The position numbers were made by a program. Below, in pieces: positions 24,001 through 27,000 of a stretch of DNA of 64,000 nucleotides. This stretch comes from a plasmid. The DNA is taken from NCBI RefSeq assembly GCF_054482595.1, contig NZ_JBTHVH010000001.1; one strand, written 5' to 3'. How positions within the stretch are numbered: the stretch's first letter is position 1; every line of letters starts with the position of its first letter.

Positions 24001-27000
24001 TTTGTTCAGCCAGCTCGGCAGCCAGGCGCAGAGCTTCGGGGAGTGTTTGGGGGAGCACTGGAGAAGCAGTGTTAGCCTGCTGCAATTCCTCCAGTTTGTC
24101 GATCAGCGAACGGCGGACCGCTTTTGACTCGCGCGCGGCAACTCGCAGGGCTTGTTTGTAGGTCATGGAGATAGTTTCAGATGTTGTGTTGTTTAATTTT
24201 TGCACTACGAAAATTTCGTAGTACTCACCATCCAGTTCATCCTTAACTCTGGCAATAAAATCATTATTGCGAACTGGTTTTTCGCTGCATAATTTCCGCG
24301 CTTCATTGACCATCTTCAACAATGTTTGGCTGTCTATTGTGTCGCCGCTGTTGGGGATAACATTCACGGCTGGTGCAGTTGTTCCCAAAGACTTCGTAAC
24401 TACAGCGTCTGGTTTGCTTGCTTTCATTCTGTGTGCCTCCTTGCGTGTTTCGGCTGCGACGGTTGCGTAATTCAGATGCCCCTGTTCGAGCAGGTATTCA
24501 CGGATATCGGTTAGCAGAATGCGGTGAACCGCGTGTTTGTCCTTTCTCCGGTAAAGTTGTTTGGTGATCATGAAGTAGTTGGCAATAACGCCTGGTATAT
24601 CCCTGGTACTGATACAGGCAGTGTGCTGTTCAATTGCCTCGATCATCTCTTCACGGGTGACTAATGACGTTCTCATAGTCCCTCCTGAGCAGAAGCGTTA
24701 ACAGGGAGGCACCAGTAACTGAGAGAATTGCGCAAATCGGTAGAAAAGCGGGCAGAGAAAATACAGGGAGCATCCGGAAGCTGAGAACGTGCCTCATCTT
24801 CTGTTGGTGCGATAACGAAGTGATAGTGACGTTTCTGGCAGGAGTAAAAGCGCCAGATAAATTCAGGGCGTGCGCAAGGATTGGCATTAACCATAGTTAC
24901 GGCCTCATGTACAGGTTTAACAACCTGCTATCCGCTGCTAAACGGGTGGCAGGACGTGACGGGGTTAGCAGACTGGCGTACATGAAACCAGCAGGCCGAA
25001 GCCTCCCCATCACGCCCCACCATAATTCGGGCGTAACGTGGTTTTACGGACACAAAAATACCGCAATATCGGATATCTGCGGTTGTCCGCATGTACATTC
25101 AGGCTGCTAAACCCGGTCGCAGAATTTGCTACGACGGCGGAACTATAAGCCTGAATGACAGGAAGATCAATAGTCTGGCGTTCAATGGTAGTATTTTTGC
25201 TCCAATAAATCAAATCTATTAGAGCAATAAATTATTATCCCAAGCTTTACAGTGCGCTGTAAAATTCAAACCTTCGGGTCAGTGGCGGAATCGTATTTCA
25301 CTCACGGAATGAGTATTATTAGTTTTGTCATACATAGCTAGGTAATGAATCACTTGAAGGAACTACGAACATGTCCGTGACCATTAGCGTCCTGCTGGAA
25401 AACAGACTTAAGCTTGGAGTTAAAAACTCGCTGCGTGCTAAAGCAGGACTTAGTCTGTTGATACAGGATGAAAACGATTCAATCCTGTTTGATACTGGGC
25501 CTGATGATAGCTTCATGTATAACGCAGGTTTAATGGGGGTCGATTTGACAAAACTGACCGCAGTTGTACTTTCCCATGGTCACTATGACCACTGCGGAGG
25601 TGTTCCGTGGATACCAGACACATGCAGGATAATATGCCATCCTATGGTGTCGGATGAGCGCTATTCGGCAATCAGGTTTTTAGGCTATACCGCCAGAATA
25701 AAAAAATTATCATTACATAATGATTTTTCACGTTTCCGCATGGAATACAGCAACACACCATTGCATATCAGTGAGCGTTTTATGTGGTCAGGAGAGATCC
25801 CTGTTGCCAGGCCACGCGCTTACGGTGTTATCGGGTGTAAGAATACGAAAGAAGATTACGTAAAAGATGAGGGGGTTTTAATTTATAAATCAGACTATGG
25901 GTTGATCATTTTTATCGGTTGTGGTCATTGCGGGGTAATTGATATTGTGCGCCACTGCCAAAATATAACCGGGATAAATCATATTCATGCAATTTTTGGT
26001 GGTCTTCATCTGCGCTGTGCGTCCCCTCTTATGCTCTGGAAGGTGAGACAGTTCTTACGCCTTCATAAACCAGATAAGATAATGGGGTGTCATTGTACTG
26101 GCAAATGGGGACGCTTGTGGTTACCGGAATCAACCTCTCCGGCAACAGGTGATGTTTATGTTCTTGGATAGACATGGTGCTGTTTCTGTTCATGTCGATT
26201 GTGTGGTTGGGGGCAAGAAAGAATTCACCTTGCTGAATAAGTCAGAGATGGAGTTGCTGGCTGACGCCTATGAGATGGCAAACGTCATGCACTAATAAAT
26301 ATATTATTTTTAATGATAAATGATTGACAACTGACAAGTGACTTCAGCCAGAATCATCACACGCCCGGTACGGATGGATCCCTTTTCAAATATTCCATGG
26401 ACGGCACAGTCTGAGTACCGGGCGCTACCTTCAGTTGTATGTATTGCTAAGCCGCCGCTGGTGGCTTTTCTTTTTTGTAGGGGGCGCTATGGATAAGAAA
26501 ATATGCGTTGTTTCGATGAGCGTCGGCAAACCGGCGTCAATGACTGCTGCATGGATCAATAACGAGCTGATAATGGCTGAGCGGACCAGCTACCCTGAAC
26601 GCCGCCGCGATATGGAACTCCAGCTGCTGCGCGAATTGCGAGAAAAAGAGGAAAAGGGGTTTATCGTGCTGGTGGAAGAGGAAAACAGCTTTATTACTGG
26701 TCGAGTTGGCCAGCGTGTAAGGTTGCGCGATCCCTTCATGAACGGCAGGCCGGTACTAATTGAGGCAATGCAGATTTATAAGGAGTTGGAACGCCAGAAA
26801 GCAATCAAGTTACCGCGCAAGGAATCCGGCAAATACATCCTCCACCAAAGCATCTTCGATTCCGAACACGATAAAAAAGGCGATGAATTTTTCAACATCA
26901 ACTGGAGCGAAATAACGACAGAGCATGTTCTGACGTTACTATGTTGCTTTGCGACGGAATACAACAACGTTGCCAGCGCCGACTACATCAGGGCAATGGC

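What the first reader, a model, noticed from the sequence alone, without database searches (positions are those of the whole stretch)
25230..26300. Stand-alone MBL-fold hydrolase as cargo in the slot where P1 carries ref / IS1 / R-M
The 266-aa ORF has a clear HxHxDH motif (SHGHYDHCGG). It resembles the short COG1237-like class of MBL hydrolases, not a beta-lactamase. It is flanked by C1-operator-like sites at 25196, 25212 and 26286. It looks AT-richer than its neighbours, and a terminator follows it. I do not recall any equivalent in P1. A 47-aa ORF (26152-26295) overlaps its end in another frame. A nuclease or phosphodiesterase role is possible, for example in defence, counter-defence or signalling-nucleotide turnover, but this is unproven.
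Basis: partly seen in the sequence, partly recalled or inferred. Interest (0 to 1): 0.5.

Follow-up and report, generated by a model that had tools for sequence, protein, structure and literature searches.

The report
Bacterial metallo-hydrolase gene replacing P1 ref
A minority lineage of P1-like phage-plasmids has lost most of its ref nuclease gene to an intact, bacterial-type metallo-beta-lactamase-fold enzyme gene of unknown substrate; it is ordinary passenger cargo and nothing here ties it to phage defence or counter-defence.

Summary

The window is a P1-like phage-plasmid. A 2.56-kb block (23622-26185) replaces P1 ref codons 1 to about 150. The block holds a second c4-icd-ant immunity module and the MBL gene. 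The small overlapping ORF is the ref C-terminal remnant.

The "flanking" C1 operators are real but face outward. The site at 25212 belongs to the leftward c4-icd-ant operon, and the site at 26286 is P1's Omat. No convincing promoter or adjacent terminator for the MBL gene was found.

The gene is bacterial. Close homologues sit on chromosomes of Cedecea, Serratia, Citrobacter and Kluyvera and on IncF plasmids, with no conserved partner gene. None occurs in 50,697 phage records, and 2 in 2.9 million IMG/VR contigs. It occupies the ref slot in 12 of about 700 P1-like elements in complete E. coli genomes, where PGAP already labels it "MBL fold metallo-hydrolase".

Most likely it is a two-metal phosphoesterase-type enzyme carried as a passenger. 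Low interest.

The parts
25371..26171 (+). MBL-fold (COG1237 / Tflp-type) metalloenzyme gene, 266 aa plus stop. Motifs: DTG (D41), SHGHYDHCGG (H69, H71, D73, H74), GCGH (C184, H186), GGLH (H213), CHCTG (C240, H241, C242).
25356..25361 (+). Likely ribosome-binding site GAAGGA, 9 nt before the ATG.
   Evidence: Read from the sequence. It lies inside the 30 bp upstream that is shared with all bacterial copies.
25289..25370 (+). Upstream DNA that came in with the gene. 25341-25370 is shared with the Cedecea, Citrobacter and Enterobacter copies. 25289-25340 is shared only with the Enterobacter pasteurii plasmid copy.
   Evidence: blastn boundaries.
25230..25288 (.). 59-bp spacer of unknown origin between the immI-2 operator and the captured gene. 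It contains the palindrome TTTACAGTGCGCTGTAAA (25247-25264). That palindrome carries the -35 of a leftward promoter-like site (25263-25234) and a weak rightward -10-like TAAAAT (25260-25265).
   Evidence: Not shared with pO111_2, which has a different stretch of about 60 bp here. Promoter scans.
26172..26185 (.). 14-bp junction between the MBL stop codon and the point where P1 ref homology resumes.
   Evidence: Bacterial homology ends at 26171 and P1 homology starts at 26186, which is P1 position 2528.
26186..26295 (+). Remnant of ref, the RecA-dependent HNH nuclease gene: C-terminal ~37 codons plus stop, a pseudogene. It can be read as the 47/48-aa ORF 26149/26152-26295 that overlaps the MBL 3' end.
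   Evidence: 94.9% identical to P1 2528-3437. PF16786 E 2e-9; phrog_2321 Ref-like. PGAP: 'Ref family... incomplete; missing N-terminus'.
26286..26303 (.). Omat, the C1 operator that controls mat. It is the right boundary of the variable segment.
   Evidence: Identical to the P1 sequence annotated as Omat (P1 2628-2645). pO111_2 homology resumes at 26287.
25196..25228 (-). C1 operator of the second immI module: a strong site at 25212-25228 (1 mismatch) and an abutting inverted weak half-site at 25196-25212 (4 mismatches). It is the left boundary of the variable segment.
   Evidence: It aligns with the operator at 18292-18308 upstream of the canonical immI, the expected position of P1's Op51. 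It is conserved in pO111_2.
23624..25148 (-). Context, not part of the MBL unit: a second immI-like module. It comprises a1/b1 targets (25096-25148), c4 antisense RNA (24942-25027), an icd-like gene (24673-24894) and a KilAC antirepressor gene (23624-24676). Relative to P1 it was inserted together with the MBL gene.
   Evidence: Rfam RF01695 71.7 bits and RF03163 55.5 bits. PF03374 and phrog_63. PGAP Icd-like.
23527..23621 (+). Decayed ref leader retained from P1. It comprises the Oref / P2ref region with a 13-bp deletion (ATTGCTC|TAATTGAGCC, 23527-23543), then the hairpin GGCGACC-ATTA-GGCCGCC (23598-23615) plus T6 (23616-21). P1 homology ends at that point.
   Evidence: Alignment with P1 and pO111_2. 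Sequence. P1 annotation of Oref and P2ref.

Best explanation
[quoted passage not shown] It is a bacterial gene, resident on chromosomes and IncF plasmids of Enterobacterales. It was captured once, as little more than ORF plus ribosome-binding site, by one sublineage of P1-like phage-plasmids.

It lies in a 2.56-kb block that also carries a second c4-icd-ant immunity module. That block replaced the first ~150 codons of ref, leaving a ref pseudogene and a decaying ref promoter. The gene sits between two outward-facing C1-controlled units (the immI-2 operon to the left, mat to the right). It behaves as a passenger ('moron'), not as a dedicated phage function.

Mechanism (inferred). H69/H71/D73/H74, together with C184/H186, H213 and H241/C242, hold a two-metal centre that activates water. 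The most likely reaction is cleavage of a phosphodiester or related ester in a small cytoplasmic molecule, as the PDB title of the only characterised subfamily member (TW9814) implies. The natural substrate is unknown.

Shown: identity, family, origin, anatomy, rarity and purifying selection. Inferred: the chemistry and the passenger role.

For: BACTERIAL ORIGIN. 529 homologues, mostly on Mb-sized Enterobacterales contigs. The 90% cluster includes copies on 4.7-5.1-Mb chromosome-sized contigs of Cedecea neteri. The position is syntenic in three Serratia species. No match in 50,697 phage records, none in BFVD, and 2 of 2.9 million IMG/VR contigs.

ANATOMY. P1 homology ends at 23621 (P1 2069) and resumes at 26186 (P1 2528). 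The ref remnant is identified. Bacterial homology covers only 25341 or 25289 to 26171. The operators face outward.

SINGLE ACQUISITION, NOT CLONAL. The 1301-bp segment is 100% identical in 12 complete E. coli genomes. All 10 places read for the exact protein share cre-c8-ant-icd-MBL-(ref remnant)-mat, yet they carry different cargo in the mat-lxc slot. Flanks are 99.2-99.6% identical.

FUNCTIONAL GENE. dN/dS 0.11-0.16.
Against: No biochemical data exist for this clade. The structurally closest relative, Tflp (2P4Z), is described as an iron protein with an Fe-S-like centre, not a hydrolase, and this protein keeps both Tflp-type cysteines. So even 'hydrolase' is uncertain. No convincing sigma-70 promoter was found for the gene (best 8 of 12), so expression from the phage-plasmid is unproven. 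The allele persists unchanged across P1-like backbones whose neighbouring cargo varies, so it could be selected in the phage-plasmid context. That would make it more than a neutral passenger.
Confidence: 0.6

Rival explanations
1. Iron-dependent redox or sensor protein, like Tflp. The Cys-containing metal site (C184, C242) would hold a di-iron or Fe-S-like centre, and the protein would do electron transfer or oxidoreduction, not hydrolysis. It would still be bacterial passenger cargo.
For: 2P4Z (Tflp) is the top hit by every method. PMC7785958 describes Tflp as having Cys in place of Asp at motif 4 and a unique Cys after the motif-5 His, with an Fe-S-like centre under reducing conditions. The cysteines C184 and C242 occupy matching motif positions (my reading of the alignment) and are invariant in this family. 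More distant relatives are concentrated in anaerobes. There is a weak Pfam ODP (di-iron) hit, E 0.017.
Confidence: 0.2
2. Counter-defence enzyme that works like Apyc1. A phage-plasmid-borne phosphodiesterase would destroy cyclic-nucleotide immune signals (Pycsar, CBASS, Thoeris, type III CRISPR) and so protect the P1-like element.
For: It is an MBL-fold enzyme with phosphodiesterases as fold neighbours, Apyc1 among them. Precomputed 'weak' PF23023 (Anti-Pycsar_Apyc1) hits exist for this protein. It lies next to a hotspot that carries R-M or SIR2 genes in sister plasmids and close to the darB anti-restriction gene. Hobbs et al. found Apyc1-like enzymes in bacteria too.
Confidence: 0.07
3. Host-protective defence gene, or other lysogenic-conversion gene, expressed from the prophage-plasmid. 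Examples would be a nuclease against superinfecting phage, or a lactonase or detoxifying esterase that benefits the host.
For: Phage-plasmids often carry defence and host-benefit cargo (abstracts). The Edwardsiella plasmid copy lies among toxin-antitoxin genes. The allele is conserved across P1-like backbones that otherwise vary.
Against: PADLOC gave only a marginal generic MBL hit, E 0.006. There is no beta-CASP or RNase Z exosite domain; the protein is a single 266-aa domain. There is no conserved partner gene. Lactonases and beta-lactamases are more distant fold neighbours. Chromosomal contexts are metabolic.
Confidence: 0.06
4. Silent hitchhiker. The gene was dragged in with the immI-2 module, lacks its own promoter, and is not expressed or not used in the phage-plasmid. 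It has simply not had time to decay.
For: No promoter-like site reaches the scan threshold on the + strand; the best is 8 of 12. Only 30-82 bp of native upstream DNA came with the gene. All P1-borne copies are identical, so they give no evidence of selection within the phage-plasmid.
Against: The ORF is intact in all 139 contigs that carry the exact protein. The arrangement persists across at least five different neighbouring-cargo variants and 0.4-0.8% flank divergence, whereas the adjacent ref promoter has already suffered a deletion.
Confidence: 0.1

Closest known systems
Tflp (PDB 2P4Z, Thermoanaerobacter tengcongensis) and TM1679 (PDB 3H3E): COG1237 'metal-dependent hydrolases of the beta-lactamase superfamily II'
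   Different: Only 23-25% identity. Those proteins come from thermophilic anaerobes and this one from an enterobacterial clade. Neither has a known physiological substrate, and Tflp is reported to be iron-dependent and ferredoxin-like.
TW9814 phosphodiesterase (PDB 7DCK)
   Different: 18-21% identity, and the chain is shorter (248 aa), so part of the middle of this protein has no counterpart (two matched stretches only). The paper was not retrievable here, so its substrates and metals could not be checked.
Apyc1, the anti-Pycsar MBL phosphodiesterase of Bacillus phages (PDB 7U2R / 7U2S; Pfam PF23023)
   Same: MBL fold, HxHxDH motif, similar size (~250 aa), carried by a mobile element. It could in principle act on nucleotides.
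P1 ref (RecA-dependent HNH nuclease), the normal occupant of this slot
   Same: Same genomic position between c8 and Omat / mat. The last 37 codons of ref survive downstream of the MBL gene.
   Different: Unrelated protein and fold. ref is a pseudogene here, and its operator/promoter region carries a 13-bp deletion.
Known cargo variation in P1-like phage-plasmids (res-mod, IS1, simABC and other regions; antibiotic-resistance cargo)
   Same: A rare accessory gene of slightly lower GC in a variable region of a conserved P1 backbone, exchanged with plasmids, as surveys of P1-like elements describe.
   Different: The ref slot is not among the variable regions named in the passage I read from the 77-genome survey. 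No IS or transposon is associated with this insertion.

Membership tests
COG1237 / Tflp-TM1679-TW9814 subfamily of the MBL fold | Significant full-length sequence similarity to subfamily members | tested here: met
   phmmer E 2.6e-27 / 2.2e-22 / 2.6e-11. Profile E 4.2e-40 / 6.4e-34 / 4.9e-25, covering residues 3-248.
COG1237 / Tflp-TM1679-TW9814 subfamily of the MBL fold | Single-domain alpha-beta/beta-alpha MBL fold that superposes on subfamily structures much better than on other MBLs | tested here: met
COG1237 / Tflp-TM1679-TW9814 subfamily of the MBL fold | Metal-site signature: HxHxDH, plus Cys at motif 4 (GCxH) and Cys after the motif-5 His (HCxG) | tested here: met
   H69, H71, D73, H74, C184, H186, H213, H241 and C242 are invariant in 38 sequences and align to the same motifs in 2P4Z, 3H3E and 7DCK. 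The feature is described for Tflp in PMC7785958; assigning C184 and C242 to those two positions is my reading of the alignment.
COG1237 / Tflp-TM1679-TW9814 subfamily of the MBL fold | Metal content and catalytic activity | not testable with these tools
   Needs purified protein.
Apyc1 (anti-Pycsar) family, Pfam PF23023 | Sequence membership: a Pfam PF23023 hit at a meaningful score | tested here: not met
   hmmscan at E<=10 lists only PF00753, PF12706 and PF19583. The precomputed PF23023 hits are 'weak' or 'faint' and lie under stronger Lactamase_B hits. No Apyc1 chain appears among the 60 best PDB profile hits.
Apyc1 (anti-Pycsar) family, Pfam PF23023 | Structural closeness to Apyc1 or YhfI class II phosphodiesterases beyond the generic MBL core | tested here: not met
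Apyc1 (anti-Pycsar) family, Pfam PF23023 | Apyc1-specific loop into the nucleotide pocket, and catalytic E74 / Y112 from the partner protomer (Hobbs et al. 2022) | not tested
   Definition taken from PMC9117128. Model coordinates and a dimer model were not available for inspection.
Apyc1 (anti-Pycsar) family, Pfam PF23023 | Broad hydrolysis of cyclic mononucleotides, including cCMP and cUMP | not testable with these tools
   Biochemical assay required.
Class B (metallo) beta-lactamases | Match to the class-B core model, and fold proximity to B1/B2/B3 enzymes | tested here: not met
MBL nucleases (beta-CASP RNase J / CPSF; RNase Z) | beta-CASP insertion domain or RNase Z exosite | tested here: not met
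   The 266-aa model is a single domain with no inserted domain. TIGR02651 RNase_Z scores 19 bits against a cut-off of 293.
P1 Ref (PF16786, RecA-dependent nuclease), for the overlapping small ORF | Complete ~186-aa protein with the HNH core | tested here: not met
   Only profile positions 67-102 of 103 are matched. P1 homology starts at ref nucleotide 452. PGAP marks it as a pseudogene missing the N-terminus.
C1-controlled P1 gene (as ref is) | A C1 operator overlapping or just downstream of the gene's own promoter | tested here: inconclusive
   The 25212 operator is positionally homologous to the operator upstream of the canonical immI (18292-18308, the expected Op51 position) and faces left. 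It lies 9 bp upstream of the only, weak, rightward promoter-like site. Omat lies downstream of the gene.

The most novel reading that the evidence does not exclude
A COG1237-type MBL enzyme, a subfamily with no known physiological role, has been recruited by P1-like phage-plasmids as a nucleotide-signal phosphodiesterase. It would be a functional analogue of Apyc1 that arose from a different MBL clade, and it would blunt cyclic-nucleotide-based immunity (or host second-messenger signalling) during plasmid lysogeny or lytic growth. Its chromosomal relatives would then be housekeeping regulators of the same signals.
Probability: 0.07. Interest if true: 0.6.

Novelty: new member of a known kind. 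Interest (0 to 1): 0.2.

Why it matters
If the ordinary reading holds, the value is bookkeeping. It documents that the ref locus of P1-like phage-plasmids is a replaceable slot. It shows a clean example of a bare bacterial gene moving between chromosome, IncF plasmid and phage-plasmid. It also corrects two tempting over-readings: 'flanked by C1 operators' does not mean C1-regulated cargo, and 'MBL fold in a phage' does not mean Apyc1-like counter-defence.

The COG1237 / Tflp subfamily is large and widespread and still has no assigned physiological substrate. A mobile enterobacterial member in a genetically tractable E. coli phage-plasmid would be a convenient handle for finding one. Only if the enzyme turned out to degrade immune or second-messenger nucleotides would this become a notable finding.

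Tried and rejected

(3) Defence-system component. PADLOC gave only a marginal generic MBL hit.

(4) Conserved operon partner that might hint at function. I clustered ORFs within +/-4 kb in 20 enterobacterial and Aeromonas loci and found only within-genus synteny. The MBL + 372-aa + 297-aa trio is shared by the Serratia chromosome and the Enterobacter plasmid but was not carried into P1.

(5) Mobile-element scars such as IS ends, target duplications or attC-like repeats around 25230-26186. Only short chance repeats were found.

(6) Read-through from the retained ref promoters as the driver of MBL expression. This is unlikely. The Oref/P2ref region carries a 13-bp deletion, a hairpin plus T-run sits at the junction, and 1.7 kb of antisense immI-2 with further terminator-like hairpins lies in between.

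(7) A donor. The best nucleotide matches are only 82-87% identical (Cedecea, Enterobacter, Citrobacter, Edwardsiella), so the direct donor is unsampled.

(8) Literature on TW9814/7DCK, COG1237 and MJ0301 (my recollection of the archaeal enzyme behind JGI's '7,8-dihydropterin-6-yl-methyl...synthase' label). Nothing usable is in the library. I regard that JGI label as uninformative for enterobacteria, which do not make methanopterin (my own knowledge, not tested).

(9) The AFDB50 fold library was unavailable.
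Full report
WHAT THE WINDOW IS. The window is a P1-like phage-plasmid. It encodes Cre (22002-23033), C8 (23084-23395), Lxc (27170-27418, -), Ulx (27415-27855, -) and DarB (27889-34656, -). It carries 11 matches to the C1 operator consensus where 0.3 are expected by chance.

CHECKING THE OBSERVATION. The 266-aa ORF at 25371-26171 exists and carries SHGHYDHCGG. It hits Pfam Lactamase_B at 57 bits. The small overlapping ORF (26149/26152-26295) also exists. It is not an independent gene. 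It matches the C-terminal end of the RecA-dependent nuclease family PF16786 and the PHROG 'Ref-like RecA filament endonuclease'. RefSeq annotates it as a Ref pseudogene that lacks its N-terminus.

ANATOMY RELATIVE TO P1.
- BLAST against P1 (NC_005856) shows homology from 23000 to 23621, which is P1 1434-2069 and ends 8 bp before the ref ATG. Homology resumes at 26186, which is P1 2528.
- So a 2,564-bp block (23622-26185) replaces ref codons 1 to about 150.
- Reading leftward on the minus strand, the block holds a complete second immI-like module. It comprises a C1 operator (25212-25228, 1 mismatch), the a1/b1 targets (RF03163, 25096-25148), c4 antisense RNA (RF01695, 24942-25027, 71.7 bits), an icd-like gene (24673-24894) and a KilAC antirepressor gene (23624-24676).
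- Reading rightward, the block holds the MBL gene.
- The canonical immI lies at about 18.3-18.6 kb. Its operator at 18292-18308 aligns with the operator at 25212.
- At the left junction the retained ref leader has a 13-bp deletion that collapses P1's Oref and the P2ref -10. P1 homology stops at the hairpin plus T-run that precedes ref in P1.

THE VARIABLE SEGMENT. Many P1-like plasmids, for example pO111_2, have the second immI module but no MBL gene. Their homology to the window runs to 25229 and resumes at 26287, with an unrelated stretch of about 60 bp in between. It is bounded on the left by the immI-2 operator. It is bounded on the right by the sequence P1 annotates as operator Omat (26286-26303), which is followed by Pmat/LPmat and mat.

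Both operators face outward and serve the flanking units.

EXPRESSION SIGNALS. The third site (25196) has 4 mismatches and is not significant on its own. The promoter scan found no sigma-70-like site on the + strand upstream of the gene. A relaxed scan gives at best 8 of 12 matches, at 25237/25260. The only terminator-like hairpin downstream is at 26449-26476, in the P1 mat leader. GC content is 0.439 against 0.484 for the window, and 9% of 800-bp windows are as low or lower.

WHAT THE PROTEIN IS.
- Sequence. By sequence and by profile, the only significant solved relatives are 2P4Z, 3H3E and 7DCK. 2P4Z is Tflp, deposited as 'Metal-dependent hydrolases of the beta-lactamase superfamily II', which is the COG1237 name. 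3H3E is TM1679, and 7DCK is 'phosphodiesterase tw9814'. Profile E-values are 4e-40, 6e-34 and 5e-25.
- Metal site. All metal-ligand positions are invariant in the family: H69, H71, D73, H74, C184, H186, H213, H241 and C242.
- Caveat on 'hydrolase'. A review of the superfamily notes that Tflp has a Cys replacing the Asp at motif 4 and a unique Cys after the motif-5 His. It also notes that Tflp holds an Fe-S-like centre when reduced (PMC7785958). Cysteines at matching positions (C184 in GCGH, C242 in CHCTG) are invariant in this family and align with the same motifs in TW9814. So 'hydrolase' is itself an inference.
- Working call. The one member whose name implies a tested activity is called a phosphodiesterase, and the next fold neighbours are all phosphodiesterases. 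I therefore take phosphoester hydrolysis as the most likely chemistry and a Tflp-like redox role as the main rival.

NOT APYC1. The large protein collection records PF23023 (Anti-Pycsar_Apyc1) hits for this protein, marked weak or faint. My own hmmscan at E<=10 did not list that family. No Apyc1 chain appears among the 60 best PDB profile hits. Structurally, Apyc1 is no closer than other MBL phosphodiesterases. Hobbs et al. define Apyc1 by a specific loop, residues E74 and Y112, and broad cNMP hydrolysis. They also show that even close MBL relatives such as YhfI have different specificity.

WHERE THE GENE COMES FROM.
- 529 homologues were found at E<1e-5. At 50-88% identity they are nearly all ~266 aa and sit largely on Mb-sized contigs of Serratia, Citrobacter, Kluyvera, Edwardsiella, Klebsiella, Salmonella and others.
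- The 90% cluster of the exact protein includes copies on 4.7- and 5.1-Mb chromosome-sized contigs of Cedecea neteri, and several Enterobacter species.
- In representative genomes the close clade is confined to Enterobacterales. Morganella and Aeromonas copies are at 34-39% identity, and a long tail of anaerobes at about 30-35%.
- Chromosomal neighbourhoods are ordinary and differ between genera. In Serratia the gene follows yidC-mnmE. In Citrobacter braakii it lies between the cus genes and a molybdopterin oxidoreductase gene. In Kluyvera it lies between an arylamine N-acetyltransferase gene and a shikimate-kinase-like gene. In Cedecea it lies between mtfA-like and GGACT genes.
- Clustering of neighbouring ORFs found no recurrent partner.
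- Copies at 82-87% nt identity sit alone on IncF plasmids of Enterobacter, Citrobacter and Edwardsiella.
- Homology between all these copies and the window covers only 25341 (25289 for one copy) to 26171. The phage-plasmid therefore acquired essentially the ORF plus its ribosome-binding site, and no sampled copy is the direct donor.
- dN/dS against the nearest copies is 0.11-0.16.

NOT A PHAGE GENE. tblastn against 50,697 phage records found nothing. BFVD has no close fold match; the best TM is 0.5. IMG/VR has two loci in 2.9 million contigs. One is a 47%-identical copy just beyond the tail-fibre assembly gene at the edge of a lambdoid prophage contig.

HOW COMMON IT IS IN P1-LIKE ELEMENTS. 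Among 5,426 complete E. coli genomes:
- 697 carry the Omat-mat backbone segment.
- 641 carry the ref 5' part that is missing here, 536 of them at >=80% coverage.
- 12 carry the MBL segment, all 100% identical over 1,301 bp and all annotated 'MBL fold metallo-hydrolase' plus a Ref pseudogene.

The exact protein is recorded on 139 contigs. All ten places read have the same cre-c8-ant-icd-MBL-(ref remnant)-mat order. They differ in the neighbouring mat-lxc slot. That slot is empty in the window and elsewhere holds a DUF2971 protein, a SIR2-domain protein, an EAL protein with IS3 and AraC, or a type III R-M system. Their flanks are 99.2-99.6% identical to the window. This points to one acquisition that has persisted in a sublineage while the adjacent true cargo hotspot turned over.

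VERDICT. The regulatory reading and the defence, counter-defence or signalling suggestion are not supported by anything found here, and the distribution argues against them. This is a new member of a known kind: a bacterial accessory enzyme of an uncharacterised MBL subfamily carried as a passenger in a phage-plasmid. Interest is low.

Noticed in passing
window 23624-25228 (- strand); canonical copy at about 18292-18573 (+): The window carries two immI-type immunity modules. The second has a C1 operator, a1/b1 targets, c4 RNA, an icd-like gene and a KilAC antirepressor gene, and it sits in the ref slot. Its c4 and target sequences differ from the canonical copy, so it may have a separate antisense specificity. 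In complete E. coli genomes, 185 records match this module at >=90% identity.
   Followed up: partly
window 23527-23543 (compare P1 1962-1985): A 13-bp deletion between short direct repeats collapses P1's Oref operator and the P2ref -10 hexamer. pO111_2 keeps this region intact. This looks like decay of a promoter that no longer has a gene to drive.
   Followed up: partly
window 27131-27169; loci L094-L103, about 5800-8700: The mat-lxc interval is only 39 bp here. Sister plasmids with the same MBL allele carry a DUF2971 protein, a SIR2_2 protein, an EAL-domain protein with IS3 and AraC, or a type III R-M system in this interval. This is the real cargo and defence hotspot of the region.
   Followed up: partly
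window 25247-25264: A perfect 7-bp-arm palindrome, TTTACAG-TGCG-CTGTAAA, lies in the 59-bp spacer of unknown origin. It overlaps the -35 of the leftward immI-2 promoter-like site and a weak rightward -10-like element. It could be a binding site for an unidentified regulator.
   Followed up: no
window 26449-26476 and 26489: A terminator-like hairpin plus T-run sits just upstream of the mat start used by PGAP (213 aa). That puts it inside the longer mat ORF annotated in P1 (250 aa), so the true mat start or a leader attenuator may merit a look.
   Followed up: no
L012 (IMGVR_UViG_2802429243_000002) 6004-6804: A 47%-identical MBL homologue lies 350 bp beyond the tail-fibre assembly gene at the right end of a lambdoid prophage (J, lom, stf, tfa). 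A GGDEF gene follows it at the contig edge. It could be a moron or host flank.
   Followed up: partly
L007 4672-7553 (Serratia marcescens chromosome) and L004 1701-4567 (Enterobacter pasteurii IncF plasmid): The MBL gene and a convergent pair (a 372-aa 'threonine/serine transporter' and a 297-aa hypothetical protein) form a trio shared by a chromosome and a plasmid (57-75% identity by tblastx). The P1-like copy took only the MBL gene.
   Followed up: partly
window 25054-25135 and 18383-18460: Rfam isrK (RF01394) hits overlap the c4 a1/b1 target regions of both immI modules. The hit beside the MBL gene is below the gathering score (46.3 against 50). This probably reflects the known relatedness of isrK to P1/P7-type immI leaders.
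   Followed up: no
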